Shown: in pieces, positions 14,808-41,248 of the stretch
How positions within the stretch are numbered: the first letter of the stretch is position 1
Layout: every line of letters begins with the position of its first letter
Virus record (IMG/VR): IMGVR_UViG_3300037149_000100
Reading direction: 5' to 3' (one strand)
DNA: 64,000 bases
DNA from: a virus
Notes under the pieces: generated by a model
Seen by the model: the letters and a program-made list of their open reading frames with translations, nothing else
Told to the model about the DNA's origin: nothing
Database searches by the model: none
Position numbers and translations under genes: made by a program

Positions 14808-15430
14808 GTGAAGAAGATTTTGAATTTGGTGACAAGCTACCCTTTCTGGATGATGAGATTCACCCCGATAGGTGGTTAAGGGCTAGGACCGAAATTGATC
14901 ATGTTTCCCTTCTTGAAGAATTCATAAAGAAGCCCATTACGGGGAACGTGATAAATTGCCCTCTGGGGACTCACTCAGATTCCACACCCTCATTCAATAT
15001 CTACCGGAACACCAATTCGTCCCATTGTTTCGGTTGCCCTGGGACCACGAAAGAACAATACAACGACAACGTTACGCTGGTCGCCAAGTGGTTTAGCATC
15101 AACAAAGTTGCAGCCCTGCAATGGCTGGAGAAGCACTTCAAGCTCCCTCCCATCGCTGGGCAAGCGGCTGAGCCTGAAGAGGAAGATGAAACAGATGAAG
15201 AGCCAGCCAACCCCTTCACCGTGAAAGATTTGGCACCAGCCTTCCTCGCTCTTGCCCCCACCCTGATTGAAACGGTGGGGGATGCGAAGTATTTGATTAA
15301 GAAATACTTCCTAGCCGAACATCTGGAGAATCCGCTACTTTTGGCCCAGGTTCTCGGACGGGCAAGGTTGGAGAGTATTAGACTATCAGGACACGTGACG
15401 AATGAAGGAACAGGAAGAGCAGTTAAGTGA
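14804..15430 (+). CDS. primase CHC2 zinc-binding domain protein
   Basis: CPLGTHSDSTPSFNIY...HCFGC; no TOPRIM domain. Confidence 0.8.
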   Translation: MSEEDFEFGDKLPFLDDEIHPDRWLRARTEIDHVSLLEEFIKKPITGNVINCPLGTHSDSTPSFNIYRNTNSSHCFGCPGTTKEQYNDNVTLVAKWFSINKVAALQWLEKHFKLPPIAGQAAEPEEEDETDEEPANPFTVKDLAPAFLALAPTLIETVGDAKYLIKKYFLAEHLENPLLLAQVLGRARLESIRLSGHVTNEGTGRAVK

Positions 15431-18400
15431 GCAGGATCCCATCATAACTGGGAAGAAGCCCCGCAAAAAGAAAGAAAAAAAGCCCAAGGCCCCCAAGGTA
15501 AAGAAGACGCTCCGCGAGATATTTATGGAGCGCCTTGCCCTTATTGACATTGAAAAGCTGAAGAAGCCCTGGATGGCCACCAAGTCATTCAGGTTGATCG
15601 ATACGGCTGAGGAGCTTCAACGCTGGGTCGATACGGTCATGAGCGATCCTGGACGCTGCCAGACCCACAGTTGGGCTTCTCATACGGGTCCCGTCATCGC
15701 AGTCGATACGGAGACGGATGGCCTGGACATTCGGGTGATTAATGGGAAAATGAAGACCAAGTTGGCAGGCGTCTGTTTGTCTGCTGATGGGGTAGAGGGT
15801 CTGTACATTCCTGTGGGGCACGAGTCAGGGAACAACATCCCCGCGACTCAATTGGCCCCTATCCTTCAGAAGCTGTTTGACCGATGCCATCTGGTATTTT
15901 TTAATGCCAAGTTCGACCGGGAGGTGCTGCGGTTGAGCCTTGGCATCACTTTCAGAGATTACCCGTTTTTCGAGGATGTGCAGACACTCACATATCTTGA
16001 TGATCCTAAGGCCAAGGTCGATGACAAAGGGTCTGGTTCGTTACAGGAAGGCTTGAAAGTTCTATCCAAAGTAAAATTGGGTCTGGAGCAGATTGAACTG
16101 GAAGATTTGGTCAAGGTAAAGGCCAAGGTCTTTAATGTAGAATTGAATAAAGATACTCAGCGCATGGTGTACTGCCCTTTCACCTGGGTTCCAACCGGCA
16201 TGGCTCTCTGGTATGCTGCTTCCGATGCGATCACCACATGGTTGCTTTGGAAGCTGTTTCATTCGGAACGAGATTTTTCCAAGATGCTTGGGGTACACCG
16301 GCTTGATCACCTTCTAGTCGATACGATTACTTGGATTGAACGTCAGCGCCCCCGTGTGGATGGCGAACGCCTTAAAGATACGATTGATTTCCATGCGAGT
16401 CGAGTCAAGCAGCTTACTGAGGAGTTGGGTAGGATCGCAGGGATAGAAAATTTCAATCCTGGGTCTACGGCCCAGATTACCCAAGTCTTATTCCAGGACA
16501 GAGGCATGGAGGTGATCGAACGGTCAGAAAAAACCAACGACCCCTCTACGGCTATCGGTGTGTTGAAGGAACTGCACAAGCGGTACCCTAAGGATGAATT
16601 TTTGATTAAACTGATGGACTTCCGCGAATATGCGGCTCTCCATCCATCCAGTATGCGGTACGACCCGATTGACCACACAATCAGATTCTATCTTAAACAG
16701 AACGTGGTGGCTGGTGGCCGACTCGCTGCGGCGGGTGGTGAGTTTGAAAAGGATGGTGGTTGCGGACTCAACCCTCAGGCCATCAAGAAAGTAGGCGGAA
16801 ACTGGTGGGTTAGGGGAAAGCTACTCCCAGACCAGTCGGTTGCACCTGAGGTCGAATCCTACCCGGATACTTCCAAACTGGACCCTTCCTGTTTCAATAG
16901 GGATAAGCAGTTGGCCCCCAACATTCATCCCAACAACCATACCGCTACCTACTTCGGTAAACATTATTGCATGATCCCTTCGTGTACTACTTGTGAGGGG
17001 AGGGTTGATTCCAGAATTGACGCGAATGAAATTATTAATTTCAGAGGTTTAATCGTAGCAGACCCTGGGTGGAGTATTTACGTCTACGATTTTTCAAATA
17101 TCGAGATGAGAGTCGCGGCAAACGTAAGCTCAGAGCCACTCTTCATCAAAGAGTTCCTGGAAGGGACGGGGGACTTTCACTCCCTTACCGCTACCGCTCT
17201 TTTTCCTGAGTTCTCAGACCCTGCCACTCCTAAAGCTAGGAAGAAAGAGCTTCGCTCCCTCGCTAAAATCATCAATTTCGCCTTGCTGTACGGCGGCACC
17301 GCTTATACGATTATGGAGAATCTGAATAAAGAAGGTTTTGCCACCACTTTTGACGAGGCTGAGGAACTGGTTAAACGGTACTGGGATTCTGTGCCTACGT
17401 TTGCCGCATGGTGTCAAAATAAGCGTGATGTGGCCAGGGCGAAGATGATTTGCCGAACCTCCACGGGTCGAATCATTAATTTTGAATCGGCCATGAAGGG
17501 ATTCAAAATCCATATACCTGAGAAGTGGGAAAAGGATAATTTCTGGGAGTGGAAGAAACTGACCAAGCGCGAAGTGGAACTGACCCGTCTGGAGCTTAAA
17601 GAGGATGCACTGGCGATTAAACAAGCCGCTGAAGCGATGTGGGCTAATCCTAAAACCGGAGTAAGGAACGCTCAGGAGTTTAATCGGTTTCTGGGCAAGG
17701 CAGAACGTGTAGCCCTTAACATTCCGTTGCAGGGGGTGGCTGGGGATCTAATGCGCTGTGCGTTGAACCGAATCCGTGTCTGGGCCTTGGCGAACCCAGG
17801 ACTGGAGAAGGTGTTCCGTCTCCACCTGACCGTGCATGACGAAATTGACTTCTCAGTTAAGAATGAGTTTGCTCCCTACGTTCTTCCTCGTTTAAACCGT
17901 TTCATGAAGCTTCGTAAACTCCATGAATCCAAGAAATGGCCGGTGCCGATTGAAACCGACTGTGAGTATGGCCAGACCTGGGATGTAAACTACCACCTGA
18001 CTGGAGATGATAGCCATAAGGCGGCTGGGTGGTCCGGAGTCCCTGGGATGGAGTCCTACATCCCTCCTGATTTTGCTGAGGATGTGGTCGAGAAGATTGT
18101 TTACGCATGGTCGAATGGTGGTGAGGAGAGAGTAACCAAGTGGCTCCAGCAACTCCACCCCAGGGTCCAGGGCTACCTGAGTGAGCTTAATGATGACCCT
18201 GATACGGTTCGTCATTACATTACTATAATGCTGCAACTCCACGAATTCTGGCAGATTGACGAAGATGAGCAAGATGAGCAAACGCTTATGCAGTATGCAG
18301 AGGAGAATGGTTTGAAAATAACGGATGAACCTCTTATCGGTGGACTGGCCGGGTATTTGGACTCAGTGCCACCAGAAGATATTATAGAAGTGGCTGAACC

Positions 18401-18770
18401 GGTTGCTCCAGAGTCAGAACCAACGGCTGAAGCCGAACCCAATCCTGAAGTGCCGATCACCACGTTGGAGGAACTTCATGAAGCTGTGGAGAGCATTGTA
18501 ACAATTGCAACTGAGGAGATAGTCGAAGAAGATGTGTTTTTTCGGGAACCTCCTCGTAAAGAAGTTGCCCCAATCATAATAGAAGAAAAGCCCTGGCTTC
18601 CCATGGTTCGTAATCTGAATAAAATTGAACAGGATGATTTTTTAAAACAAGTGGGGTTTCCGCTAGGCACCGAAGAAATCCAATTTGTTTATGAGTTTGA
18701 CAAAGAACCAGTTAACCTACCCTATTGTATGACTACTACTATTCCGGAAGAGTATCTCGTATGTTCATAA
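15402..18770 (+). CDS. polA: family A DNA polymerase with 3'-5' exonuclease
   Basis: Exo I DTETDG, II FNAKFD, III YAASD; Pol A DFSNIEMR, B RSLAKIINFALLYG, C TVHDEI. Confidence 0.95.
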   Translation: MKEQEEQLSEQDPIITGKKPRKKKEKKPKAPKVKKTLREIFMERLALIDIEKLKKPWMATKSFRLIDTAEELQRWVDTVMSDPGRCQTHSWASHTGPVIAVDTETDGLDIRVINGKMKTKLAGVCLSADGVEGLYIPVGHESGNNIPATQLAPILQKLFDRCHLVFFNAKFDREVLRLSLGITFRDYPFFEDVQTLTYLDDPKAKVDDKGSGSLQEGLKVLSKVKLGLEQIELEDLVKVKAKVFNVELNKDTQRMVYCPFTWVPTGMALWYAASDAITTWLLWKLFHSERDFSKMLGVHRLDHLLVDTITWIERQRPRVDGERLKDTIDFHASRVKQLTEELGRIAGIENFNPGSTAQITQVLFQDRGMEVIERSEKTNDPSTAIGVLKELHKRYPKDEFLIKLMDFREYAALHPSSMRYDPIDHTIRFYLKQNVVAGGRLAAAGGEFEKDGGCGLNPQAIKKVGGNWWVRGKLLPDQSVAPEVESYPDTSKLDPSCFNRDKQLAPNIHPNNHTATYFGKHYCMIPSCTTCEGRVDSRIDANEIINFRGLIVADPGWSIYVYDFSNIEMRVAANVSSEPLFIKEFLEGTGDFHSLTATALFPEFSDPATPKARKKELRSLAKIINFALLYGGTAYTIMENLNKEGFATTFDEAEELVKRYWDSVPTFAAWCQNKRDVARAKMICRTSTGRIINFESAMKGFKIHIPEKWEKDNFWEWKKLTKREVELTRLELKEDALAIKQAAEAMWANPKTGVRNAQEFNRFLGKAERVALNIPLQGVAGDLMRCALNRIRVWALANPGLEKVFRLHLTVHDEIDFSVKNEFAPYVLPRLNRFMKLRKLHESKKWPVPIETDCEYGQTWDVNYHLTGDDSHKAAGWSGVPGMESYIPPDFAEDVVEKIVYAWSNGGEERVTKWLQQLHPRVQGYLSELNDDPDTVRHYITIMLQLHEFWQIDEDEQDEQTLMQYAEENGLKITDEPLIGGLAGYLDSVPPEDIIEVAEPVAPESEPTAEAEPNPEVPITTLEELHEAVESIVTIATEEIVEEDVFFREPPRKEVAPIIIEEKPWLPMVRNLNKIEQDDFLKQVGFPLGTEEIQFVYEFDKEPVNLPYCMTTTIPEEYLVCS

Positions 18771-19272: not shown

Positions 19273-21588
19273 ATGGCAGGAAGACGCAAACAGACGAGAA
19301 TCAATAAGGTAGCGAGTAAGGATATTCCCCAGTTCTCTGTAGGGAAATATTCCAGTTTTAACATAAACGGTACGATCGAAGATCCCGTTAGGAACGGCTC
19401 TGCCACTGATGCTAAAGTCAGAATGGCCAATAAGATGCGGAAGAGTGCAGACCTATGGGCTGGGGAGAACGGTCCTGCCAACATTTCTGACTCTGAAAAC
19501 ATTGGCTATTATAGCTATGAGTTCCCAGTAGATGCTCTGGAACTCCCACAGTCTAGAGCCCAGGAACTCCGGTTCTACCGTCTCGCGTATGATCGTGACC
19601 CTATTGTTGGGCGAGGTATTGACCTTCATACTGAAATCCCAATGAACAAAATAAATCTGGATCGTCCTAAGTGCTCATCTGAGGCGTTTGGCGATTATAT
19701 TTACGACTTTTACCAGGGTTTGGTAACAAATTCACGGTTATTTGAGACCCTACTTCACGCCAGTCGGGAGTACTGGAATATTGGTGAGGCATTCCTATTT
19801 GTAGAGGATGATCCCGATATTAAGCCCTCCGAAGCTGCTGCGGAATACGTCCAGGCCATGGATGAGCAGGACGACCAGAAGATGGCCGAACAAGGCCAGT
19901 CTCGTTCCTATTTTGAGACGGACAATACCTCTTGGGGTTCCGAAGCGGTCAGCATGACCACAAAGCACTCCTCAGCTAAACTGGCCGCACAGGTGGGCTT
20001 TGACCCACTTGCCGATACGGACAAGGCAATTCGCAAGAGGGTTGCAGCCCTTAACGAAATCATGAGTGACCTGAAATCTCTGGAGAAAACTGCCAGTGCT
20101 AAACAAGCAGCCCCTCCTGAAGATGCGGGACCGGCCATCGGAGAGTCTACGGATGCCCCCACGGGTGGCACGGATCTACCAGCCCCCGGTGCCGAACCGG
20201 GTGCCGATGATGCGGGTTTAGGCGCTGATGGTGATGCCGGAGGTGGCGGAATCATGCCCTCTGACTCCATGGGCGGAGGTGGTGGAGGTATGGGGATGAG
20301 CATGGGAGGTGGCGGAGGTATGGGTATGGATGATACGGGCACCGGTATGGAGACCCCTGTCCCCCCCAAGGATCTTGAAACCCGTCGAATGGAAGAAGTG
20401 ATTAAGCTGTTGAGGAGAAAGAAAGAACTCCTGAAAGAGTTAGAAGATCTTCACGATATCCGCAAGAACGACTTCGAACTCTTCTCCCATCTATCCAATA
20501 AAGATTATATGGGTTTTGACCGTATTCAGCTTCTTCCCCCTGAAAATGTTGAAATCAAGAAGTCTTCGACGTTTGGCTCTGAACCCACTATCTTCTACAA
20601 GCCCCCAGAAGATGCTAAAGCATCGTACATCGAGAACCCTGATACCCCTGATGAGGTTAAAGACAGCCTTTCAGCCGATGGGGTCATTCCACTGAATGAC
20701 AATCCATTCAAGGGCTCTTATGCGATTCATTTCGCTCGTAAGAAAGCCCCATTCGAGGATCATGGTCGCTCGATTCTTCAGCGTTGTATGAGGAGCATCA
20801 TCTACCGTGAAAAGCTCCGTCAGGTGCAGACAACTATTGCTTCCCGCAACATGACCCCCAAGACTTTGGTGGTTGCTCCGGGTGTGGCAAATGGTGAGTT
20901 GATGGCCCTCAGAGGTCATATTGATGAAGCCAAATCAGATCCAGATTACACCGTGGTCGTCAACTATGAATGCACCTGGAATGAGATTGGCTCTGAGGGT
21001 CGCCTTCTCACTCTGGATGGTGAGTGGAGCCATACCGGCAATGACTTAGCCATCGGTCTCGGCTTCAGTCCTGATATCCTTAATGGCGAGGGACTCTACA
21101 GTAACACCCGTACTCAGTTGGACATCCTCAGCACTACTTACCTCCAGTTCCGTGCGGTTGTTGCCTACATCGTGCAAGAACTGATATTCAAGCCCATCGC
21201 AATGAAGAAGGGCTTTTACGAAATCGACCGATATGGCCGACCCCGCTGGCTCTACCCCGAAGTGAAGTTTGGCCGCATGGCTCTTCGCAATGCTGGAGAG
21301 ACCTATCAGATGTTGTTCGATCTTTACCAGAAGGGCTCTGTACCGGTTAGTGTTCTGCTTGAACTCCTTGATGTGGACCCAGAAGTCTGCCGCAAGAACC
21401 TAGAAGCTGATCTCTTCACCGTTAACGACTCCAAGTTCAATGCTTTCCTGGAAAATCTCTACAGTAATGTTGCTAGTTCTGATTCATTTGCTACGACTGA
21501 TATTGCGGATAAGTTTAAACGTGCGCTTGGTTTGAAAGAAAAGGATATTGATGAATCTGAGATCGAAGGTTCCGGCGAGGGCATCTAA
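19273..21588 (+). CDS. portal protein with a large low-complexity insertion
   Basis: YDRDPIVGRGIDLH, EYWNIGEAF, LLPPENVEI, IHFAR, GRSILQRC portal-type blocks. Confidence 0.75.
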   Translation: MAGRRKQTRINKVASKDIPQFSVGKYSSFNINGTIEDPVRNGSATDAKVRMANKMRKSADLWAGENGPANISDSENIGYYSYEFPVDALELPQSRAQELRFYRLAYDRDPIVGRGIDLHTEIPMNKINLDRPKCSSEAFGDYIYDFYQGLVTNSRLFETLLHASREYWNIGEAFLFVEDDPDIKPSEAAAEYVQAMDEQDDQKMAEQGQSRSYFETDNTSWGSEAVSMTTKHSSAKLAAQVGFDPLADTDKAIRKRVAALNEIMSDLKSLEKTASAKQAAPPEDAGPAIGESTDAPTGGTDLPAPGAEPGADDAGLGADGDAGGGGIMPSDSMGGGGGGMGMSMGGGGGMGMDDTGTGMETPVPPKDLETRRMEEVIKLLRRKKELLKELEDLHDIRKNDFELFSHLSNKDYMGFDRIQLLPPENVEIKKSSTFGSEPTIFYKPPEDAKASYIENPDTPDEVKDSLSADGVIPLNDNPFKGSYAIHFARKKAPFEDHGRSILQRCMRSIIYREKLRQVQTTIASRNMTPKTLVVAPGVANGELMALRGHIDEAKSDPDYTVVVNYECTWNEIGSEGRLLTLDGEWSHTGNDLAIGLGFSPDILNGEGLYSNTRTQLDILSTTYLQFRAVVAYIVQELIFKPIAMKKGFYEIDRYGRPRWLYPEVKFGRMALRNAGETYQMLFDLYQKGSVPVSVLLELLDVDPEVCRKNLEADLFTVNDSKFNAFLENLYSNVASSDSFATTDIADKFKRALGLKEKDIDESEIEGSGEGI

Positions 21589-24796: not shown

Positions 24797-25453
24797 ATGC
24801 CCGCGCCCTTTAATCTCATTCAAACGATTGGTAGTGGAGCTGTAACCACCTTCTCGCTGGCTGGATTGGACCCCACCCTCACCTACAAGTTTTATGTCAA
24901 CTCTACCAATAGTGACGGGATCAGTCCCAATTCAAATGTAGTAACTTTTGGAGCCCCCTCACTTCTATTCACGTACCTTCCCCGCTTTTTCAAAACCGTT
25001 CCAGGCACCTCCGGGGTGTTGACCCAGCCAGTGACGATGGAGGATGGTTCGGATCCTACCTCTTACACTTGGACCGCCACGCTGACGATGCTGAGTGTGA
25101 TTCTTAACTTCCCTCCGAATACCTCAGATGACACGATCCTTGACATCCCCGCTCCCACTATGGCTCCTACCGAGCTTACAAATTATGAGTGGGTATGGTT
25201 TGACCCCGCCAGTGGGACATTTTATCTTTCGAATAATTATACTAGCTGGTTCACCAATGGAGCCCGACTTTCATTTAATGTTACGGCCACCAGAATCTCT
25301 GATGGGTTGGTTCTCAATGGAGCTTATTATGCATTCCAAGCCCCACCTTCACTTGAGATTGACCCCTTAACAACGTTCGGTTTTGCAGGATCAGGGTTCC
25401 AGCCCTTCGGCCAGGGAACATTTTTTCAGGGAGTCGTAAATGTCCGCAGTTAG
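24797..25453 (+). CDS. tail-associated protein starting with the C-terminal half of an FN3 domain
   Basis: AGGAG RBS; [29 protein letters not shown]. Confidence 0.65.
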
Positions 25454-27155
25454 TAAACCCACAATTCAAACCAATCCATTTGCTTACGCAGGATTAAAAA
25501 ACGCCATCTCTTATGCGTCCAACTCTCCGGCTGCCTCCACCCATGACGGTTTTCCCCAGGTTACGATGCAACCTATCGCCTTTGGTGGACAGCCCCCTAC
25601 GGGACAAGACTTTAATGGTATTTTCAATTTTATAACTGCATCTCAAGTCTGGACTAATTGTGGTGGCTATTGGTGGTATGACTCGAATTTTGCCAATACG
25701 ATTGGTTACCCCATTGGGGCAGTTTTGACGACAAATGATTTAGGCTATGAGTTTGCCTGCATTGAAGACGGAACCGCTGTGGACCCCAATGTTAGTGGTC
25801 CTGATGGCACCAATTGGGCTTCTTGGGGCGGCTTGGTATCTGGAGCCTTGAGACATGTTCAGGACACAGGTTTACTAAATGCTTTAGTGATTACAACCAA
25901 ACCTATCGTTACCAAACTTTACGATGGCATGAGTTTCAGTGTAGTGGTGAAGAACACCATCACTGGGGCCTGCACGTTGAATGTAGGTACTGGGGCAATC
26001 GCCATTGTTCGCTCAGATGGCTCTACCCCGCACCCAAATGATATGGTAGCGGGTGGGTGCTATGAGTTTGTGTATGATAAGACTCAAAATAAGTTCTTTG
26101 TTGGTTCCAGTGTAGCGGGGGCAACCGGCTCAACTGGACCCACTGGGGCTCAGGGACAGACTGGCAAGACCGGATTGACCGGAGCCACAGGGTTGACAGG
26201 GTTGACCGGACAGAGTGGCTATACTGGACCCACTGGAGCAGCTGGCCTTACTGGAATGACAGGTTTGACTGGCCTTACTGGTCTTACTGGTCTTACCGGG
26301 CAGAGTGGTTATACTGGTTACACCGGACCCACCGGAGCCATTGGTTACACCGGACCCACCGGAGCCACCGGCCTTACTGGGTACACTGGACCCACTGGGG
26401 CTCAGGGTGTGGTCGGACCCAGTATGGGGGTTCAGGGTGCTCGTAGTGCACTCAAAATTTATACCACCGGGACTAATAGCAACGTATACATCTCCTTCAA
26501 GCAGCTGGTGGTTGCCTCCTCTTCCTATGTTCCTGTAGTTCTTAGTGCCAATTCCGTAGTGTTAAACTCTGCCTCCTCTGGGGTAAACGGGAGAGACTCG
26601 AATACCACCCTCTACTCCTCTACTTTCTATGATGTTTATGTTATTTCTGATGATTACAGCGCTGCTGCTCTGGCCACTTACGCCGGGACTACACCAGTCT
26701 TACCCTCACCCTTTGTCTACTCTGCCAGGGTGGGCACCTTCCTTACGGACAGTACTACTAACGCCTTCCCCCTCTCCATATTACAGATTAATGATCGCAC
26801 AACTTATGTGGTCACCCCTGGGACAAACTTACCATCCCCACTTGTCATAGCCTCCGGAGTAACCTCTGGAGCATCTGTGCCAGTAAAGGGCGTCTGTGTT
26901 CCACCTTCTGCAATAGAAATAGACCTAGGGATTTACGGCATCTTCTCCGGAGGACAAGGTATCTGGGCCGCACCTAGCTCAAGTTACTCCTCCTACCTCA
27001 CTGCTCCTCTCTATCTTAGTTGCAATGGCTCTTCTAGTGTGAGGGGACCGTGGGCGATAAGGGAAATGATGATGTTAGAGAACAGCTATGTTCAGTGGGG
27101 GAGCAGCGATGGGAGTGCCCAACTTCGCTGTGGGGGGTACAGGGACACGTTCTAA
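25440..27155 (+). CDS. tail fibre with collagen-like shaft
   Basis: N-terminal GFP.VTMQPIA.GG.PP.GQDFNGI baseplate-anchor motif; about 34 G-X-Y triplets. Confidence 0.8.
26118..26423 (+). repeat. collagen-like G-X-T 9-bp repeats
   Basis: GATGSTGPT...GLTGLTGLT; tandem actggtctt units. Confidence 0.9.
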
Positions 27156-29445: not shown

Positions 29446-30174
29446 ATGACCTTCTATTGGCGAGACGAGTGGTGGAACAAAGACCTGAATGAGTTGAGGT
29501 CCAGAACAGAGAAGCTATATGAGAAAATAGGTCGGGACATGTGGCAAGTCACGGCTGAAAAAATGATTGCACTTCGAGGCTGGAAAGTTAAGGAGTCTGA
29601 GGTTATTCCAGTCCTTCAGGAATTGGGGGTGTATTACGTCCCCAAGAAAATGGTACCCGGCCCCCTGTATGTGTTCCCCAAGGTAGACGCCGCAGGACAC
29701 GTGACCTCCGCTCAGACTAAACCCCTCCATGAACTGTTTGGCCCCGGCAAGTACCACACGCTGGGGGTGAGTCAGAAAGTCTTCCTGGGACCTACCTGGA
29801 TAGGTAACTCAGATGCAACCCTGGAGAAGATTCTTAGACTGCACTCTGTCACCCTGGTAGAGGGTCCGTTTGATTTAGTAGCCGCAAAGATACTCGCACC
29901 CAATTTGCCTATCATGTCTTCGCTTACAAAATCTGTTGGCGATAAGCACATGGCTTATCTTAAAATACTGGGAGTGAAACGCCTCTACCTGCTGTTTGAT
30001 CATGATGAGGCGGGAGAGAAATCCAAAATAATTCTTCAGAAAGTCCTTGACATTAAGGTAGAGGCGATTGGGGAATGCCCAGGAGATGACCCATCTGGTG
30101 CGTTGAAAACGGTGGGTACAAAACTGGCTCTCCGTCGAGTATTAAAGACCATAGAAGAGGAACATGATGATTGA
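29446..30174 (+). CDS. TOPRIM-domain primase catalytic subunit
   Basis: LVEGPFD, LFDHDEAG, GDDP. Confidence 0.8.
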   Translation: MTFYWRDEWWNKDLNELRSRTEKLYEKIGRDMWQVTAEKMIALRGWKVKESEVIPVLQELGVYYVPKKMVPGPLYVFPKVDAAGHVTSAQTKPLHELFGPGKYHTLGVSQKVFLGPTWIGNSDATLEKILRLHSVTLVEGPFDLVAAKILAPNLPIMSSLTKSVGDKHMAYLKILGVKRLYLLFDHDEAGEKSKIILQKVLDIKVEAIGECPGDDPSGALKTVGTKLALRRVLKTIEEEHDD

Positions 30175-30532
30175 TTCTATCCCCCTACTCAGAGGAGCCC
30201 TTTATAAGGTCTTCAAACACCGTGACACAGCGGAGATGATGGATGTATTCATCTCTGGAGAGTGCAGTCGTTACTGGATTTACAACCTCACTTTGGAGGA
30301 TGGAACCATCACTCCATTTATTGACTACTCCCTTCAAGATGGCGGCGGGTGGTTAAACACAGGTTGCTCCTACGCCGATTTCGTAGCTGCTGTAGACGTT
30401 ATAATTTCTACATGGCCCCTCTCTGAAGATATCAAAACAATTCTTGAAAATGAAAAATCCAGGCTTGCGAAATTGATGCAAGAGAGTATCAGTAATAGCA
30501 AGCCTAATTCACTGCCCAAGGAGGCAAAATGA
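30164..30532 (+). CDS. hypothetical protein
   Basis: GAGG RBS, preceded by GAGTATTA. Confidence 0.6.
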   Translation: MMIDSIPLLRGALYKVFKHRDTAEMMDVFISGECSRYWIYNLTLEDGTITPFIDYSLQDGGGWLNTGCSYADFVAAVDVIISTWPLSEDIKTILENEKSRLAKLMQESISNSKPNSLPKEAK

Positions 30533-32023: not shown

Positions 32024-33037
32024 TTGAGTTTCTGGACCCCGGTATCGTTGAACCAAATCGTGGGCAACGCTAGATCATTGGAGTTGCTCAGGGCAATCCT
32101 GGAGAACCGAGACCGTGCTCCCTCTTCCTTTGTATTCGATGGAGCGAATGGAGTTGGAAAGAACACCATCGCTAGGTTGTTTTTCCAGGGCATGTTCCCT
32201 GGTGAGAAGCCGAGGGTAGTTCAGCCTGAGTTCTTCTCACAAACATTGCAGCAAGACGATCTACAGGAGTGTCCCTGCATCGTTTGGGACCACGCAGAAC
32301 GCCTCACCGTTGAGCAAGCGGATCAGCTCTGTGCTTATCTGGACAGGTCTGATGTGAAGTCGGTGTTCATCTTTCTGTGCGTCAACTACAACAAGGTGCA
32401 TAAGGGTTTACGAGCCCGAGCCCTGCGGATTCCCTGTTTAAAGCCAAGTCGGGCGGATCTGACAGGTCTGCTGGGCTCCATTTGTGCTAGTCATCATTTG
32501 AACTTTGAACTTGAAGCTCTAGATATGATTGCTTCTCGGACTGCTGATATCCCCTCACGGGCTATTCTCGATCTTCAGGCCATTTCTGTGTTGGGAAATA
32601 TAGCGGTTGAAACGGTGCTTAAACTTCAAACCAATATTGAAGAACAGGCCATCCAGATTTTAACTCATATCGATGACCCTGACATCATGAAACTAGCTGA
32701 TTCGATTAAGGATGCACACCCCATAGAGGAGTTTATTGACACTTTGTTCGAAGTGTACTCTACCGCTTTTTATGATAATACGAAATCTTTTGGGATTATT
32801 GCTGAGAAACTGAGTAATTATAAAAGAGTGGGAGACATCTTCATCAAGTGGAAAGCTGCCACCTCCCTCCCCCCGTCTGCTCTTTTTATTCTCATAAAAG
32901 AACTCGTGGACTCAAGAAAAATGGTGGAAACCCCTATCATTATTTCTTCCATCAAGAAGGAAATCACACGAACCCCCCCTATTCAGCCAACGGATACCTG
33001 GAAAAAGATAGTTTCTGAAATCGAGAAAAATAAGTGA
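32024..33037 (+). CDS. clamp-loader (DnaX/RFC-like) AAA+ subunit, degenerate Walker B
   Basis: P.SLNQIVGN, GANGVGKNT, WDHAERLT, LRARA in place of SRC. Confidence 0.75.
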   Translation: MSFWTPVSLNQIVGNARSLELLRAILENRDRAPSSFVFDGANGVGKNTIARLFFQGMFPGEKPRVVQPEFFSQTLQQDDLQECPCIVWDHAERLTVEQADQLCAYLDRSDVKSVFIFLCVNYNKVHKGLRARALRIPCLKPSRADLTGLLGSICASHHLNFELEALDMIASRTADIPSRAILDLQAISVLGNIAVETVLKLQTNIEEQAIQILTHIDDPDIMKLADSIKDAHPIEEFIDTLFEVYSTAFYDNTKSFGIIAEKLSNYKRVGDIFIKWKAATSLPPSALFILIKELVDSRKMVETPIIISSIKKEITRTPPIQPTDTWKKIVSEIEKNK

Positions 33038-34131
33038 TATTACAATACGGTGATATAAAAAAGCTCAAAGGTCTCAAGTGGTATATCCTTGAGGTCAGAT
33101 CAGAGCGAACAGTGGAAAATGTGATTCGCCGGGTTGGTAAGACCATGCCCACAATTTTCAAAGATGGTGGATCCTGCGAGGTGTTCGTCCCTATTGAGGA
33201 CCGAGATCTCAACTTGTTCAGCCTGTCAACCTCTTCCTACGTATTCTTGCGCTCTGATCGAAAGAAAGAGTTGCAAAAGTTTAAAGGGGTCACGGGTGTG
33301 GTGGGGATCCTTTGTGAAGGAGAGCAGCAACGCATCGACAAGGCTTTGATGGTAGAGGATGACTACGTTCAGGAGCTAATCAAAACGACAGAAGAGAAAT
33401 TCATGAAGAGCCCAGAATCCATTCAGGTAGGCTCTTTCGTTCGTATTCTTGATGGTCTGGATAAGGGGTTCTGCGGACACGTATCTCACATAGATCGGGG
33501 TTATGCCCTGATTAGGGTAGAGCTTAAAACGAGACAGATGTTCATTGATACCCCCCTTCATAATCTCAAGGATCTGAGCTTTGTTCCCTCTCACTCCAGA
33601 GTGTTCTATTACTCTGACCTAGTGGATGAGTATGTGAAGGAGTATAGTGACGAAGCCATCATGACTCTAACCAAGGATTTGAAGTTCGTTATGGAAACGG
33701 TTGAACCTGCCCCAACGGATGAACCGGATGAAAAGAAGGTCAAGTACGGTAGGCAGAAGACTGTAACCGCTATGACAAAGAAACTGATATTCAGTGGAGT
33801 AAAGGACCCAAAAATCATTATTAAAGAGACATTGGCAGCCATTGAGTCCAGTGATATCAAAAAACCAAAGAGTGCGTTTATCTTTTACTCAATCCTTAAG
33901 CAGGCCATCATGGAGACCCTGTTCAAGGATGATACGAGAATCAAAACATACAAAGATGTGGTCAAGTATTACGGGGACTCCTACCGCTTTTCCCCAAAAA
34001 TGATCGCTGAATTGGATGAGCATTCTGTTCTCCCTCCGAAAAGTGAAACTTCAGATAAATCGAATCAACATTCCACAGTAATAAAAATTAGACTGACCAA
34101 GGAGTCAAAATGCCCAACACCACCGGAGTAG
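33034..34131 (+). CDS. NusG/RfaH-family transcription factor with C-terminal extension
   Basis: NGN: WYILEV, EVFVP, SYVFL, GVVGIL; KOW: IQVGSFVRILDGLDKGFCGHV. Confidence 0.8.
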   Translation: MILQYGDIKKLKGLKWYILEVRSERTVENVIRRVGKTMPTIFKDGGSCEVFVPIEDRDLNLFSLSTSSYVFLRSDRKKELQKFKGVTGVVGILCEGEQQRIDKALMVEDDYVQELIKTTEEKFMKSPESIQVGSFVRILDGLDKGFCGHVSHIDRGYALIRVELKTRQMFIDTPLHNLKDLSFVPSHSRVFYYSDLVDEYVKEYSDEAIMTLTKDLKFVMETVEPAPTDEPDEKKVKYGRQKTVTAMTKKLIFSGVKDPKIIIKETLAAIESSDIKKPKSAFIFYSILKQAIMETLFKDDTRIKTYKDVVKYYGDSYRFSPKMIAELDEHSVLPPKSETSDKSNQHSTVIKIRLTKESKCPTPPE

Positions 34132-35195
34132 GATTAGACATCGGTACCGCTTACATCGTCTCCGCCAAGTCTGACACTGACAATAAAGTCAAAATTAGCT
34201 CCGTGCGAGATTGCTTTCTTGCTCTTCCTCTCGATCAGTCTCCCGCATTGGAGATTGCAGGCGTGGAGTTCATCGAAGGTGCAGAAGAGGTCTACGTGGT
34301 CGGTAACGATGCGATCAACCTGATTGGTGTGCTGGGTGGAGAATTGCGCCGACCCCTCAGCAAGGGCTTCATCAGCCCCAAGGAGGAAGATGGAAAGGAG
34401 ATTCTCCAACTCATTCTCCAGCAGATTCTGGGTAAACCCCAGGTTTCAGGAGAATTGGTGGCCTTCTCTGTCCCCGGTCCAATCTTTGATGTGGAGAGTG
34501 CGGTTGCACCTAAAACCAGTGGGGATACCTCCCTGGCCTTCCATACCAGCTTCTTCAAGAATCTCATCACTGACCTGGGCTACACGGCCCGTCCGGTTAA
34601 CGAAGCGGTGTCGGTGTGTTTCAACGAAACCATTTCCCCAAAGAACAAGGATGAGGTACCCCTCACCGGACTGGCCATCAGTTTTGGAGCCGGAACCACA
34701 AATCTGGCATTAATTTTCAAGTCAATTCCAGTCAAAACCTTCGCCCTGCCGTTTGGCGGAGACTACATTGATCAAATGGCAGCAAAGGCCACGGACTCTA
34801 CCCTCTCTCATATCACTCTGTTGAAGGAGCGTGGTGTGAATTTGATGACAGGAGCGGTTGTGGCCAAGGGTGAGTTTGACGACACTCAGACTGAACGTCA
34901 AGCAGAGGCTATTTCGGTAGCCTATGCGGACCTCATCACCAAGTTGGTCAACGCAACCAATAAATACTTCTCCTTTAATGAGAACAGGGTGGAAATTCCA
35001 GGCATGATTCCAGTTGTTTTGGCGGGTGGAACCACGAAGTCTCCGGAATTCATGAAGCTCTTTAACAAAATCTTCATGGAGAACTTGGATGTGCGGTTCA
35101 AGGTTTCTGAGGCACGGCTATCTGCTACCCCTCTGGATGCGACCGCTTCGGGTTGCTTGAATTACGTGAGGATTTTGAATTCCAAAAAGCAATAG
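34110..35195 (+). CDS. actin-fold ATPase, volactin-like
   Basis: Phosphate-1 GLDIGT, NEA, phosphate-2 ISFGAGTT, GGDYID, adenosine LAGGT, ATASG. Confidence 0.85.
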   Translation: MPNTTGVGLDIGTAYIVSAKSDTDNKVKISSVRDCFLALPLDQSPALEIAGVEFIEGAEEVYVVGNDAINLIGVLGGELRRPLSKGFISPKEEDGKEILQLILQQILGKPQVSGELVAFSVPGPIFDVESAVAPKTSGDTSLAFHTSFFKNLITDLGYTARPVNEAVSVCFNETISPKNKDEVPLTGLAISFGAGTTNLALIFKSIPVKTFALPFGGDYIDQMAAKATDSTLSHITLLKERGVNLMTGAVVAKGEFDDTQTERQAEAISVAYADLITKLVNATNKYFSFNENRVEIPGMIPVVLAGGTTKSPEFMKLFNKIFMENLDVRFKVSEARLSATPLDATASGCLNYVRILNSKKQ

Positions 35196-35236: not shown

Positions 35237-36112
35237 ATGTCAGATAACAAACCAACCCCCCCATTGACTCCCATTGCAGCCCCTGCCTATGTTCCAGTGG
35301 CTCAACCACGATTTCAAATGCCTACCATCAATCTGAGTGGTGGGCATATTCTTATGCTTATTCTAGCCGTTGGGCTTACATGGTGGTTGACTAAACGTAA
35401 TCTGCCCACTCAGGCAATCGCACAGACTCAGATGGCAGAGTTCAAGGCTCTTTCAGATAAGGTGGACCAGCTTGCGGGGCATGTGGTTACCCAGTCTGAT
35501 TTAGAAAGTAAGGTCAAGGCTCAAATGGGGCCAGCTTTCGTTGCTGCGGTAAAAAAACAAGATGGAACACTTACAAATCTTGCCACAGCGGTAGGGCTGA
35601 TTCAGGGGCAACTATCCGCCATGGACCACACCACTGTTCAAAAAACTCCAATTGGAGGATTTAGCACAGTTCTAAGTCAGGATAGGGGCAAGGCCCCAGC
35701 GTTGACTAGTCTCTCACTTAGTTATGATCCCGCCTCTTCAGGTTTATCTAGTCAGTGGAACAACCACACCGAAAAATTTACAGCAAATTATGGGGAATGG
35801 AGAACCAGTGCGGACGGGGCCAGATCGGCTATTTCCTTGTCCAGAGACGTTTATGACGGCTCCACAAAAATTGGAACTGAACAAATTCCATTGGTGAACG
35901 GGGACGCTTATTTTAGCCAATCTGATATTGCTAGAACTGTCCCATTACCAAAATATACGTTTATGATTGGGTCTAGTTATGACCTCAGTACTGGGAAACC
36001 CAGGGTGAGTGGGCTGCTGGGACGGCAAATCACAGATGCATCTGGTGTAGCAACTGGTTTTGTTAATAACTCCTGGACCATCCTTTACACATATAGGTTC
36101 GGAGCAAAATAA
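35237..36112 (+). CDS. N-terminal TM, coiled-coil, C-terminal beta-strand envelope protein (spanin-like?)
   Basis: TM ILMLILAVGLTWWL; ends WTILYTYRFGAK. Confidence 0.45.
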   Translation: MSDNKPTPPLTPIAAPAYVPVAQPRFQMPTINLSGGHILMLILAVGLTWWLTKRNLPTQAIAQTQMAEFKALSDKVDQLAGHVVTQSDLESKVKAQMGPAFVAAVKKQDGTLTNLATAVGLIQGQLSAMDHTTVQKTPIGGFSTVLSQDRGKAPALTSLSLSYDPASSGLSSQWNNHTEKFTANYGEWRTSADGARSAISLSRDVYDGSTKIGTEQIPLVNGDAYFSQSDIARTVPLPKYTFMIGSSYDLSTGKPRVSGLLGRQITDASGVATGFVNNSWTILYTYRFGAK

Positions 36113-37085: not shown

Positions 37086-37319
37086 GTGGGTGTCTTGAGC
37101 CTTAGTAAGTTAGACCGTATTGAACCAAAGGGCGGGACACGCTCAACATATGAGAAGAGGGCACCAGCGGGGTCCAAAGCAGCCCCCTGCTGCCTCCAAT
37201 GCAAGGCTCCATTTGATTTGGCCGAGCTGTCCATGGTAGACCAGATGGATGCGCTGGACGGAGTTGGACTTTGTGCGGATTGCCTGGAGGCAAATTTTCT
37301 TAAAGAAAATCACACATAA
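37086..37319 (+). CDS. zinc-finger protein
   Basis: AAGGAG RBS; CLQC..CADC. Confidence 0.6.
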   Translation: MGVLSLSKLDRIEPKGGTRSTYEKRAPAGSKAAPCCLQCKAPFDLAELSMVDQMDALDGVGLCADCLEANFLKENHT

Positions 37320-37380
37320 CCGAGTAATACATAACATACCAGCGGAATCCTCCGCACCCATTCACTCAAAGGAGAGTCTT

Positions 37381-37587
37381 ATGACCACCAAGCCCGATGT
37401 AACCACAATCATCAAAGGAGAGTTCGCCAAGACCGATACGCTCACTGTCAAGCAGATCAGAGCGATCAGTCCCGAACTCGACAACGCCAATCTCGTTCGC
37501 AAGGGGTTCAAGACCCTGATTGCCGAGAACCTCTGCACCCTGGAGGGCAGCAAGCGCGGATCCAAGTACGTCCGTAAGCAGTCCTAA
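37381..37587 (+). CDS. small basic winged-helix DNA-binding protein
   Basis: AAGGAG RBS; LIAENLCTLEGSKRGSKY wing motif. Confidence 0.65.
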   Translation: MTTKPDVTTIIKGEFAKTDTLTVKQIRAISPELDNANLVRKGFKTLIAENLCTLEGSKRGSKYVRKQS

Positions 37588-37624
37588 CCGGATATCCAAA
37601 GGCGAAGCAATAGTTGGTGAATAG

Positions 37625-37654
37625 ACCAGGGCTTGGAAACGAGCCCTGGTTTTT
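37625..37654 (+). terminator. intrinsic terminator
   Basis: accagggcttg-GAAA-cgagccctggt followed by a T run. Confidence 0.85.
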
Positions 37655-39292: not shown

Positions 39293-41248
39293 GTGAGGGT
39301 CGGCGTGGACGAACAGTGTCCCCTAGTTACACCGTATACCGAGAATGAAGGCATCCCTCAGAAGATGCTGGAGTTGCTCTACCGTATTCGAAAGCATGAT
39401 CCGGAAGAGGGGCCGATACCAGTCCCCATTCCGGCTTGTTTTCGTGAAGTCTCACTGACTCAGCATAAGCCAGTTAAACTGAAGAACTTCCAGACCCAGA
39501 TGGTTGCTCATTTGATAAAGATGCACCGATTCATCAATGGCGATGGGGTGGGTCTGGGTAAGTCGATATCCGCAATTGCTGCATCGGCTTATCTGCATGA
39601 GAAGCATGGGTGTAAAATCCTGGTTATGGGCACCAAGTCCACCACTTATCAGTGGAAGACGGAGGGGTTTGACGAATTCACTACCCTACGGACTCATGTG
39701 GTTACTGACACATACAACAAGCTGAAAGGCAGCCCAGCAAGACTTGCCCAAATTCGAGATTTCTTGGAAAATGACTTGTGCGATGTCCTGATTTGTAAAT
39801 ACACCTCCCTGGTGGGCAGGACTAAACCCCTAGAAGGTGAGTTTGATGAGAATGGCTACCCCATAGAGAAGGGACAACGCGAGGAAATAAGCCCAGAGGT
39901 GCAGGAGCTTTTAAACATCGTTCAGCCCCATGGGGAAAATTTGATACTGATTTGTGATGAGGCTCAGAAATTCAAGGCCACTACGACCCAGATTCGCAGA
40001 ATGATTCTTCAGTTACAAACCAGGGTGGGTAGGGTTTGGGCAATGACTGCTACGGTCATTCAGAATAGCTTGGATGAATTTTACAGTATTGCCAGTGCGA
40101 TTGGGATCCGACCTTTTGGGGGAATGTCCAAATTCAGAGATCATTTCTGCAAATATCAAATGACTTACATTGGTAATGGGAGGCAGAAGCCCTCTCTGGT
40201 GGGTTACCGCAATCTCAAAGAGTTCAAGATAGGGATGAGACCGTTCTATTTGGGGCGGTCTCAGGCTCAGGTAAAGGAACCACTCCCTAAGTTGACCACC
40301 CTTTACCACCCCATTGACCTGGATGCAAGACAGATTAAGATGTTTGAAGATATTAAAAGCGGGAAGCTAATACTCCCTCCCTCTGTTCATAAGGTAGCTG
40401 GGGAAATGGTTGAAAAGGACCGGGACCCCAGTAGCATGATGACTCAACTCTCTGTTCTCCAATTGATATCAAACCATCCTTGCCTGATTGATCCCTCTGA
40501 TAAAAAGGCGTTTTTCACTAAATCCCTCAGTCCAAAAGAAGATGCGTTGCTGGAACTCTTGGATGGAGAGCTAGCTGGAGAGAAGGTCTTAATCTTCACT
40601 AAATCGCGTAAATGGATTGACCGATTTGAGTATCTCTGTAAGAACGGCCACTTCACTGATCGTAAATTCTTACGAATCACTGGGGCCGAAGATGAGAAAC
40701 AACGAGACATTAATAAACGACTCTTTCAAACCAACCCCGATTATGACATGATGTTCATCAATACTGCTATCATGGAGGGGGCAAATCTTCAACAAGCCGC
40801 GCACATGATACTCTTGGATGTTCCATTCGGGTTTGGTGCGTTAATTCAACTAGTGGGGCGAATGCTCAGAATGTCCAGCCCTCACTCGGCTTGCACCCTC
40901 CACATTACCCTCGCAAAGGGCACGATTGATGAGTATACGATTGATGTGCTACGGGGTAAAAAAGGTGTATTTGAAGTCATTCTTGGAGAGTCCCATTCGG
41001 CGGGACTTCTGGACTCGGGGAACGATTTGGACCTATCGAGTGGGATGGAGACGTTGAACGACGATAAGGAGTTCAGAGAGCTTCTGACCGCTCATGTGAG
41101 AAAGTCGAAAATGGGGGATTTCCTAAACGGGAAGCTGATTGCCGCTGCCGCCAGTGAGGGCGAAGATTATGTGATGAGCTTCGAAAAAGATCCCAAAGAG
41201 AGTATTAAGAACAAGAAGAAATCATTCGAGTTTTCTGAGAAATGGTGA
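39293..41248 (+). CDS. SNF2-family SF2 helicase/ATPase
   Basis: GDGVGLGKS, CDEAQK, TAT..QN, EGANLQ, QLVGRMLR. Confidence 0.9.
   Translation: MRVGVDEQCPLVTPYTENEGIPQKMLELLYRIRKHDPEEGPIPVPIPACFREVSLTQHKPVKLKNFQTQMVAHLIKMHRFINGDGVGLGKSISAIAASAYLHEKHGCKILVMGTKSTTYQWKTEGFDEFTTLRTHVVTDTYNKLKGSPARLAQIRDFLENDLCDVLICKYTSLVGRTKPLEGEFDENGYPIEKGQREEISPEVQELLNIVQPHGENLILICDEAQKFKATTTQIRRMILQLQTRVGRVWAMTATVIQNSLDEFYSIASAIGIRPFGGMSKFRDHFCKYQMTYIGNGRQKPSLVGYRNLKEFKIGMRPFYLGRSQAQVKEPLPKLTTLYHPIDLDARQIKMFEDIKSGKLILPPSVHKVAGEMVEKDRDPSSMMTQLSVLQLISNHPCLIDPSDKKAFFTKSLSPKEDALLELLDGELAGEKVLIFTKSRKWIDRFEYLCKNGHFTDRKFLRITGAEDEKQRDINKRLFQTNPDYDMMFINTAIMEGANLQQAAHMILLDVPFGFGALIQLVGRMLRMSSPHSACTLHITLAKGTIDEYTIDVLRGKKGVFEVILGESHSAGLLDSGNDLDLSSGMETLNDDKEFRELLTAHVRKSKMGDFLNGKLIAAAASEGEDYVMSFEKDPKESIKNKKKSFEFSEKW

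What the first reader, a model, noticed from the sequence alone, without database searches (positions are those of the whole stretch)
34110..35195. Volactin-like actin homologue in a phage, at the head of an envelope-protein cluster
All actin motifs are present. The detailed pattern (GLDIGT..I.SA, VYVVG.DA, RRP...G.IS, FS.P, YH/FH, P.NE, TGL.ISFGAG.TN, GGD.ID..AA.AT, PVV..GGT) matches my recollection of haloarchaeal volactin better than MreB, ParM or FtsA. It has its own CAGTAATA motif and is followed by TM/envelope genes. Known: PhuZ tubulin and AlpC actin position phage DNA. Inference: an undescribed actin-based cytoskeleton linking replication or assembly to the membrane or altering host shape.
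Basis: partly seen in the sequence, partly recalled or inferred. Interest (0 to 1): 0.8.

Follow-up and report, generated by a model that had tools for sequence, protein, structure and literature searches.

The report
Volactin-family actin in a jumbo phage
A large uncultured phage carries its own strongly conserved actin-like protein of the archaeal "volactin" family, always beside a membrane-anchored partner inside its DNA-replication genes, so it probably builds actin filaments in the infected cell, which no paper I could search describes.

Summary
ORF 34110-35195 (+, 361 aa) is a real, intact gene for an actin-fold protein. It matches Pfam Volactin (PF25216) at 162 bits over the whole profile. 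MreB and FtsA score below their cut-offs, and ParM and Salactin do not hit.

The window is a fragment (about 37%) of a roughly 290-kb tailed phage. At least 316 IMG/VR phage contigs encode relatives. This protein belongs to a smaller, divergent clade with a fixed gene order: primase, clamp loader, NusG-like gene, volactin, then a ~290-aa single-pass membrane protein. dN/dS is 0.02-0.05.

Filament formation, membrane tethering and a role in positioning replication are inferred, not shown. The CAGTAATA motif is only marginally enriched.

This scan has met phage volactins many times on other DNA (145 notes). I found no paper on them.

The parts
34110..35195 (+). Volactin-family actin-fold ATPase gene (361 aa)
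34100..34105 (+). Shine-Dalgarno AAGGAG, 4 nt before the ATG
   Evidence: Read directly from the sequence. The N-terminus aligns with those of the homologues.
34076..34083 (+).
   Evidence: 4 copies in the window against 0.94 expected, and 2 of 100 shuffles reach 4. The flanks do not align.
33034..34131 (+). NusG-like gene with a C-terminal extension. It is the conserved upstream neighbour and overlaps the volactin start by 22 nt.
   Evidence: Weak KOW hit (20.6 bits, below cut-off) and PHROG 6386 antiterminator at E 5.5e-4. Present directly upstream in all 8 close loci and in the deep branches at 37-41% identity.
35237..36112 (+). Conserved downstream partner of 291 aa: single TM helix (residues 33-51), helical stretch, then a beta-rich C-terminal part ending YRFGAK. 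An alternative TTG start lies at 35216.
   Evidence: A homologue directly follows volactin in 7 of 8 close loci; L003 has a homing endonuclease in between. It also follows directly in the deep branches L115, L116 and the P0039 contig, and is displaced 1.5 kb in L117. Identity is 24-30%, E 1e-17 to 1e-24. The conserved part is C-terminal. The AF2 model is poor at pLDDT 48. dN/dS 0.08-0.12.
29446..30174 (+). TOPRIM primase-like gene, start of the conserved module
   Evidence: Toprim_2 at 23.2 bits and PHROG 47 DNA primase. Syntenic in relatives.
32024..33037 (+). Clamp-loader-like gene of the module
   Evidence: PHROG 5846/168 clamp loader. The homologues in deep branches carry DNA_pol3_delta2/AAA.
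39293..41248 (+). SNF2-family helicase, downstream end of the syntenic block
   Evidence: SNF2-rel_dom at 81 bits plus Helicase_C. 54-84% identical in relatives.
37623..37652 (+). Strong intrinsic-terminator-like hairpin (13-bp stem plus T run) that closes the co-directional block after volactin

Best explanation
Shown: the gene encodes an intact actin-fold ATPase under strong purifying selection. It is a divergent member of the volactin family, carried by a jumbo tailed phage of about 290 kb.

Inferred mechanism: it is made together with the phage replication and transcription proteins. It binds ATP and assembles into dynamic actin-like filaments in the infected cell, as the family founder VolA does in Haloferax volcanii. 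The filaments work with the gene-linked ~290-aa single-pass membrane protein, which would tether or nucleate them at the cytoplasmic membrane. Together they organise the interior of the infected cell by placing or spreading the replicating phage DNA or replication factory. This would be the job that tubulin PhuZ does in nucleus-forming jumbo phages and actin AlpC does for the CGP3 prophage.

My confidence by step: family identity about 0.97, filament formation about 0.65, partner acting as membrane tether about 0.3, DNA or replication-factory positioning as the purpose about 0.35.
For: Identity:
- PF25216 scores 162 bits over the full profile, while MreB and FtsA fall below their cut-offs.
- The volactin-specific motifs are shared with Haloarcula, Halogeometricum and Natrinema proteins that score 437-447 bits.
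- The family is monophyletic against MreB, MamK and FtsA at 99 SH-aLRT.

Founder's behaviour: VolA forms dynamic filaments that span the cytoplasm and touch the membrane with their tips (PMC10869688).

Importance of the gene:
- dN/dS is 0.02-0.05.
- Volactin is the best-conserved protein of the region. It is 69% identical in L004-L007, against 57% for the NusG-like protein, 62% for SNF2, 49-51% for the primase and 35% for the 435-aa protein.
- Family members carry inteins right after the phosphate-2 motif.

Context:
- The order primase, clamp loader, NusG-like, volactin, bitopic partner holds across the whole clade, down to about 40% identity.
- The partner starts between -17 and +60 nt from the volactin stop.
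- No tubulin gene is found in this record or in relatives that are 77% and 69% complete.
- Other volactins are tied to membrane or DNA partners: DUF7139 membrane proteins lie upstream in 3 of 3 haloarchaeal loci, and some bacterial members are fused to a ParB-type HTH.
Against: - There is no experiment on any phage volactin.
- Phosphate-2 lacks the Asp that actin, MreB and ParM use for hydrolysis. This is a family-wide trait that VolA shares.
- The partner's N-terminal tail is variable and only 10-17 aa long in deep branches. If the partner is N-in, almost nothing conserved would face the actin. Its topology could not be settled, and its model is poor at pLDDT 48.
- The partner shows no detectable homology to DUF7139 or to the conserved neighbours of the main phage clade.
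- In the main phage clade the gene lies next to neck/tail-completion-like genes, not replication genes. The family's role in phages may therefore not be tied to replication.
- Conserved adjacency inside a largely collinear lineage is weak evidence for physical interaction.
Confidence: 0.6

Rival explanations
1. The filament serves virion assembly or trafficking, for example moving or arranging capsids and tails late in infection, rather than DNA replication.
For: In the large main phage clade (60+ loci) the volactin gene has conserved neighbours that include a Neck1/tail-completion-like protein (PHROG 5, E 3.9e-9), a Zn-ribbon protein and large unannotated proteins. Earlier scan notes also describe neck/tail contexts.
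Against: In this clade the gene is embedded among primase, clamp loader, NusG-like and SNF2 helicase genes in every locus examined. No virion gene lies next to it.
Confidence: 0.15
2. The phage actin manipulates the host cell. It would alter shape, block division or enlarge the cell by interfering with host envelope growth, acting with the downstream membrane proteins.
For: The founder VolA is a cell-shape determinant. Membrane-protein genes follow the phage gene. The nearest solved folds include MreB and MamK.
Against: The protein is not an MreB by HMM, motifs or tree. No amphipathic membrane-binding terminus is evident in the sequence. VolA filaments are cytoplasm-spanning, not MreB-like. 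Nothing ties the protein to host wall-synthesis proteins.
Confidence: 0.12
3. It is a ParM-type partition motor that keeps the phage genome as a plasmid-like prophage or pseudolysogen.
For: Actin-based partition is the classic role of mobile-element actins such as ParM, AlfA and Alp7A. Some bacterial volactins are fused to a ParB-type HTH.
Against: There is no ParR-like DNA-binding gene next to it and no centromere-like repeat array within several kb. There is no StbA/ParM Pfam hit. The adjacent partner is a membrane protein.
Confidence: 0.08
4. It is a non-polymerising actin-fold ATPase, such as a chaperone-like or kinase-like enzyme, that merely retains the fold.
Against: The same substitutions occur in the haloarchaeal proteins of the family whose founder polymerises in vivo. 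There is no substrate-binding or lid domain. HSP70, sugar-kinase and FGGY families give no Pfam hit. Filament actins rank first.
Confidence: 0.07

Closest known systems
Volactin (VolA, HVO_2015) of Haloferax volcanii; Pfam PF25216
   Same: Same Pfam family, matched over the full length. Same signature motifs as the haloarchaeal members: S-F-G-A-G-x-x-N, N-E-[AG], [YF]H, GGDxxD, GGT. About 30% identity over 96-98% of the length to Haloarcula, Halogeometricum and Natrinema copies. Same clade against MreB, MamK and FtsA. Gene-linked to a membrane protein.
   Different: It is encoded by a tailed phage and scores 162 bits against 437-447 for the haloarchaeal copies. It sits on a long stem (0.58) and has clade-specific insertions at about residues 128-142, 174-186 and 243-258. 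Its partner lies downstream and is a single-pass protein unrelated to the upstream multi-pass DUF7139 of haloarchaea. Its context is replication genes, not cell-shape genes.
Main huge-phage volactin clade (about 337 aa; e.g. uncultured phage LR745208, 485 kb)
   Same: Phage-borne volactins. They are 33-39% identical to this protein, share the same motifs and are widespread, with 316 IMG/VR contigs of up to 619 kb.
   Different: A separate clade with different conserved neighbours: a ~220-aa upstream protein, a Neck1-like protein, a Zn-ribbon protein, and Dps-like proteins in some loci. None of these is homologous to this window's NusG-like gene or TM partner.
PhuZ tubulin spindle of nucleus-forming jumbo phages (Chimalliviridae)
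   Same: A jumbo-phage-encoded cytomotive filament protein, so a likely functional analogue for organising the infected cell (PMC7950403, PMC13282480).
   Different: PhuZ has the tubulin fold and uses GTP. Here the fold is actin. No tubulin gene is detectable in this lineage's records. No sign of a chimallin shell was examined.
AlpC/AlpA of the Corynebacterium glutamicum prophage CGP3
   Same: A phage-encoded actin-like protein that supports viral DNA replication and positioning (PMC4446434).
   Different: AlpC works with a DNA-binding adaptor, AlpA, encoded next to it. Here the adjacent gene encodes a membrane protein, no adaptor or repeats are seen, and the actin family is different. I did not compare the sequences directly, as no AlpC sequence was at hand.
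MamK / MreB / BeeR (solved bacterial actin filaments)
   Different: Only 15-20% identity. The MreB HMM is below its cut-off, the phosphate-2 and connect-1 motifs differ, and they form separate clades.

Membership tests
Volactin (Pfam PF25216) | Full-length match to the family HMM above the curated cut-off | tested here: met
   162.2 bits against a cut-off of 35, E 2.9e-47, profile 3-318 of 321. Confirmed on the genome record at 161.3 bits. Among 14 control genomes only Haloferax volcanii is over the cut-off.
Volactin (Pfam PF25216) | Family-specific nucleotide-site motifs shared with haloarchaeal members and absent from MreB/MamK | tested here: met
   S191-F-G-A-G-T-T-N198 against haloarchaeal S-F-G-A-G-M-T-N and MreB D-I-G-G-G-T-T-E. 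N-E-A against MreB E-E-P. The FH/YH motif, GGDYID and AGGTT are also present.
Volactin (Pfam PF25216) | Groups with haloarchaeal volactins to the exclusion of other actin families | tested here: met
   IQ-TREE with 91 rows: the 86 volactin rows separate from MreB, MamK and FtsA at 99 SH-aLRT. Backbone support inside the family is only 86-94. The outgroup was limited to MreB, MamK and FtsA.
Volactin (Pfam PF25216) | Actin fold with four subdomains | tested here: met
Volactin (Pfam PF25216) | Dynamic polymerisation into cytoplasm-spanning filaments, the property shown for VolA | not testable with these tools
   Known only for VolA in H. volcanii (PMC10869688). It needs biochemistry or imaging.
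Volactin (Pfam PF25216) | Upstream DUF7139 (CdpA-like) membrane-protein neighbour, as in haloarchaea (an associated feature, not a defining one) | tested here: not met
   DUF7139 lies upstream in 3 of 3 haloarchaeal loci. Here the upstream gene is NusG-like, and the downstream TM partner shows no profile similarity to DUF7139 (hhalign probability 0.1%).
MreB/Mbl (PF06723) | HMM above cut-off and the D-x-G-G-G-T-T-E phosphate-2 motif | tested here: not met
   23.8 bits against a cut-off of 27, covering residues 58-131 only. Phosphate-2 is SFGAGTTN. It forms a separate clade.
FtsA (PF14450) | HMM above cut-off and the FtsA-type 1C subdomain | tested here: not met
   24.6 bits against a cut-off of 31.8. 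The model has the usual IB-type layout, best matched by MamK and MreB.
ParM / ParMRC partition system | StbA/ParM-family actin with an adjacent ParR adaptor gene and parC repeats | tested here: not met
   No StbA hit at E<=0.01. No repeat arrays in 30-42 kb. The adjacent gene encodes a membrane protein.
Salactin (PF25229) | HMM match | tested here: not met
   No hit at E<=0.01 for the window protein. A haloarchaeal volactin gives only 17.5 bits.
Phage cytoskeletal systems (PhuZ-like, functional class) | Phage-encoded filament that positions DNA or the phage nucleus during infection | not testable with these tools
   This is a functional analogy only. No tubulin was found in this lineage's records.

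The most novel reading that the evidence does not exclude
A whole lineage of jumbo phages of about 290 kb that lack a tubulin spindle runs an actin-based system instead. A volactin filament is co-expressed with the replisome and a NusG-like factor. It is tethered to the cell membrane by a dedicated single-pass protein whose large conserved domain faces the cytoplasm, with a ZipA-like topology. The filament positions the phage replication and transcription factory. This would be an undescribed viral actin cytoskeleton, distinct from PhuZ and from ParM/AlpC systems, and related by descent to an archaeal cell-shape actin.
Probability: 0.25. Interest if true: 0.85.

Novelty: new variant of a known kind. 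Interest (0 to 1): 0.6.

Why it matters
Phage-built cytoskeletons are known in detail only for the tubulin PhuZ of nucleus-forming jumbo phages, and for one prophage actin, AlpC. This family is an actin whose only studied member is an archaeal cell-shape protein. It turns out to be common in very large uncultured phages: at least 316 IMG/VR contigs, and 422 clusters at 50% identity with E<=1e-30.

This window represents a distinct clade in which the actin is wired into the replication module together with its own membrane partner. If these proteins polymerise, large phages would have at least two independent ways of organising the infected cell. Volactin biology would also become testable in bacteria.

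Three further points matter. The family links haloarchaea, a few bacteria (Desulfosarcina, Magnetococcales) and phages, which raises the question of who gave the gene to whom. Databases already tag these proteins automatically as 'Volactin domain-containing', but no paper I could search discusses them. The finding has also recurred many times in this scan, so this window adds a new clade and context rather than a first sighting.

Tried and rejected
1. PHROGs gave no family for the protein. A sequence search of the PDB gave nothing significant, with the best actin hit being BeeR at E 0.75.

2. I tested whether the C-terminal extension of the NusG-like protein, or the downstream TM partner, is homologous to the conserved neighbours of the main phage clade or to haloarchaeal DUF7139. 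hhalign probabilities were all <=1%, so I rejected this.

3. I looked for ParMRC-like centromere repeats. Only weak two-copy matches and trivial tandem repeats turned up, so I rejected this.

4. I tested CAGTAATA as a phage promoter. There are 4 copies against 0.94 expected, and the flanks do not align. The sigma-70 scan found no more sites than shuffles. It is not supported. Two sites do share the RBS context ACTG[AC]CCAAGGAG[GT]CAAAATG.

5. The structure prediction of the partner, from 11 sequences, was too poor (pLDDT 48) for a fold search. Positive-inside counting on the homologues, done by eye, gave conflicting answers about topology.

6. The first genome-contig scan failed because the broad alignment had no conserved stretch. 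The second, with a narrow alignment, used patterns too specific to reach haloarchaeal chromosomes. HVO_2015 itself was therefore never fetched, and megaplasmid copies from three haloarchaea stood in for it.

7. A complex prediction of actin plus partner was not possible. The two genes are in different frames and only single chains can be folded here.

8. BFVD has no close viral structure; its top hits are Hsp70s and the distant Gp506 of Bacillus phage G.

9. The host could not be inferred. The window has no tRNAs, and the only hint is a partial homologue on a 4-kb contig binned as Spirochaetota.
Full report
**1. The observation**

The window holds an ORF at exactly 34110-35195 on the + strand, 361 codons long. 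It starts at an ATG four bases after the Shine-Dalgarno AAGGAG. It overlaps the last 22 nt of the upstream ORF. Its N-terminus lines up with those of its homologues.

The window is clearly a tailed phage. It has a large terminase (9693-11546), a portal (19273-21588), a family-A DNA polymerase (15402-18770) and a tail fibre (25440-27155), with essentially every gene on one strand. The record behind it is an IMG/VR viral contig of 106,154 bp that CheckV rates 37% complete, so the genome is about 290 kb.

**2. What the protein is**

Pfam gives a full-length match to Volactin (PF25216): 162.2 bits against a cut-off of 35, covering profile positions 3-318 of 321. MreB_Mbl (23.8 against 27) and FtsA (24.6 against 31.8) stay below their cut-offs. 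StbA/ParM, Actin, HSP70 and Salactin do not appear at all. PHROGs has no family for it, and no solved structure is detectably similar by sequence.

I could not fetch HVO_2015 itself. Instead I used three haloarchaeal megaplasmid genes (Haloarcula pNG700, Halogeometricum pHBOR01, Natrinema). They are about 30% identical to the phage protein over 96-98% of its length, and they score 437-447 bits on PF25216.

A motif-by-motif alignment shows that the phage protein shares the features that set volactins apart from MreB and MamK:
- Phosphate-2 is S-F-G-A-G-T-T-N in the phage and S-F-G-A-G-M-T-N in haloarchaea, against D-I-G-G-G-T-T-E in MreB.
- Connect-1 is N-E-A, against E-E-P in MreB.
- It has a [YF]H motif that MreB lacks, plus GGD[WYF][IV]D and [ST]GGT[ST].

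So 'all actin motifs are present' is true, with one caveat. The phosphate-2 Asp is replaced by Ser in the whole family.

**3. Phylogeny**

I built a maximum-likelihood tree of 91 proteins. It included IMG/VR phages, two GenBank huge phages, database representatives, haloarchaea, Desulfosarcina, Magnetococcales, and an outgroup of MreB, MamK-like and FtsA-like proteins.

- All 86 volactin-type rows separate from the outgroup at 99 SH-aLRT.
- Inside the family there are four groups: a haloarchaeal clade (100), a bacterial chromosomal clade of Desulfosarcina plus Magnetococcales (98), a large phage clade of 45 rows, and a smaller clade of 18 rows on a long stem (0.58) that contains the window protein (99).
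- Backbone support between these groups is moderate, at 86-94.
- MAG contigs labelled Actinomycetota, Thermoplasmata, Legionellales and Lysinibacter nest inside the large phage clade. They are probably binned phage contigs.

**4. Structure**

- MreB: about 26.
- Actin and crenactin: about 25.

Hsp70 follows closely at 24.2, so the fold alone does not prove polymerisation. The viral structure library has no close match. That fits the fact that only two uncultured huge phages in INPHARED carry a homologue.

**5. How common it is**

- The word-indexed database returned 275 homologues, all tagged PF25216, on contigs up to 404 kb.
- A profile search of 1.84 billion representatives found 422 clusters at E<=1e-30.
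- A pattern scan of IMG/VR found 316 viral contigs, up to 619 kb.
- The ESM Atlas calls the nearest clusters 'Volactin domain-containing protein', with 78-94% of their members viral.
- In plasmids, only haloarchaeal megaplasmids match.
- In species genomes, apart from likely phage contigs in MAGs, I found a complete Desulfosarcina variabilis chromosome and five Magnetococcales genomes. The context there is ordinary cellular genes, with a small ORF just upstream.

**6. Context in this clade**

The gene order is TOPRIM primase, a 435-500-aa protein, a clamp loader, a NusG-like protein, volactin, then a ~290-aa protein. This order is kept in all eight close IMG/VR loci. It is also kept in the deep branches of the clade: the contigs of P0038, P0034 and P0039, and that of P0029 with the partner displaced by 1.5 kb.

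The downstream protein has the same build in all of them: a short N-tail, one TM helix, a helical stretch, and a beta-rich C-terminal part ending in an aromatic-R-x-G-x-K motif. It is demonstrably homologous across the clade, at 24-30% identity and E 1e-17 to 1e-24. It starts between 17 nt before and 60 nt after the volactin stop. In L003 a GIY-YIG homing endonuclease has landed in between.

Volactin is the best-conserved protein of the region. It is under strong purifying selection, with dN/dS 0.02-0.05 against 0.08-0.12 for the partner, and with dS near saturation. A strong terminator at 37623-37652 ends the block.

**7. What does not fit the simplest story**

- The partner's N-tail is variable and very short in deep branches. 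Its conserved part follows the TM helix.
- Its topology is undecided and its model is poor at pLDDT 48.
- It is unrelated, as far as profiles can tell, to the haloarchaeal DUF7139 neighbour and to the conserved neighbours of the main phage clade.
- In that main clade the gene lies near neck/tail-completion-like genes rather than replication genes.
- No centromere-like repeats or ParR-like gene are present.
- CAGTAATA is only marginally enriched and has no shared flanks.

**8. Hints from the wider family**

- About 19 of the best 150 representatives are split near the phosphate-2 motif. One of them, P0134, is verified as carrying a LAGLIDADG intein. Inteins typically sit in the most conserved sites of important proteins.
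- Some bacterial members are fused to a ParB-type HTH and lie beside a second plain volactin.
- One member is fused to Wzz, GNVR and a ParA-like kinase module.
- No tubulin gene is found in this record, in relatives that are 77% and 69% complete, or in the 485-kb phage LR745208.

**9. Literature and earlier notes**

Seventeen papers mention volactin, and none of those I examined mention a phage. Reviews of jumbo-phage biology up to 2026 discuss PhuZ but no phage actin of this kind. The known phage actin is AlpC of prophage CGP3 (PMC4446434).

The scan's own notebook holds 145 notes on phage volactins in at least 120 genomes. These include follow-ups that propose adaptor partners in other clades, and one first-reader note on a relative from this same clade. 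I treated these as leads.
- I confirmed the DUF7139 neighbour in haloarchaea.
- I found the intein independently.
- I confirmed the NusG-like / volactin / membrane-protein arrangement.
- I could not test any docking claim.

**10. Verdict**

The most likely mechanism is a dynamic actin-like filament. It would be made alongside the replication machinery, work with its gene-linked membrane protein, and organise the infected cell. This rests on inference from the founder protein and from gene context, not on a test.

I rate it a new variant of a known kind: phage-encoded cytomotive filaments and the volactin family. It is of solid but not exceptional interest, because the same theme has now been seen repeatedly and only experiments can take it further.

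Noticed in passing
P0134 and about 18 other representatives: Many volactin-family proteins are about 700 aa long and match the profile in two pieces, split just after the phosphate-2 motif. P0134 carries a LAGLIDADG homing-endonuclease intein there (LAGLIDADG_3 at 34.9 bits, Intein_splicing at 28.5 bits).
   Followed up: partly
L112:6860-10676 and L114:2206-5196: In cellular-looking contigs, a plain volactin gene is followed by a second one fused to an N-terminal ParB-type HTH and a long C-terminal extension (P0200, 891 aa, HTH_ParB 27.8 bits; P0185; P0203). This suggests a DNA-linked actin pair in some bacteria.
   Followed up: partly
P0211 (1160 aa): A volactin domain is fused to Wzz, GNVR and a ParA/MinD-like ATPase. 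That is the architecture of a polysaccharide co-polymerase tyrosine kinase.
   Followed up: no
L003:7144-7932: A GIY-YIG/NUMOD3 homing endonuclease gene is inserted between the volactin gene and its membrane partner in one close relative.
   Followed up: yes
L086:4569-5975, L088:4485-6071, and L087, L090-L092: The Desulfosarcina variabilis chromosome and five Magnetococcales genomes carry a volactin (246-267 bits) in ordinary cellular contexts. Each is preceded by a small 132-137-aa ORF. In Magnetococcus, FimV-N-domain proteins lie upstream.
   Followed up: partly
L082, L083, L084, L085, L089: Contigs in MAGs labelled Actinomycetota, uncultured bacterium, Thermoplasmata, Legionellales and Lysinibacter encode volactins that nest inside the main phage clade. 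They are probably phage contigs binned into cellular genomes.
   Followed up: partly
L010-L081 (main phage clade): A different conserved neighbourhood surrounds the volactin gene in this clade. A ~220-aa protein lies directly upstream (40 loci), a Neck1/tail-completion-like protein at -2.1 kb (33 loci) and a 460-aa protein at -3.2 kb (51 loci). Two paralogous proteins of 460-595 aa lie downstream (60 loci), along with a Zn-ribbon protein (42 loci). A Dps/ferritin-like protein is present in 15 loci.
   Followed up: partly
window 30508-30531 and 34092-34112: Two gene starts share nearly the same 21-nt ribosome-binding context, ACTG[AC]CCAAGGAG[GT]CAAAATG. Each lies 8-10 nt after a CAGTAATA motif.
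   Followed up: partly
window 37623-37652: A strong intrinsic-terminator-like hairpin (13-bp stem, 7 GC pairs, T run) lies after the small gene 37249-37587. It is followed by a lipoprotein-like membrane-protein gene.
   Followed up: no
window 33034-34131 and L115-L117: The NusG-like protein upstream of volactin is 365 aa here but 460-524 aa in deeper relatives. An internal segment appears duplicated: L116up and L117up each match a second time at 25-28% identity.
   Followed up: no
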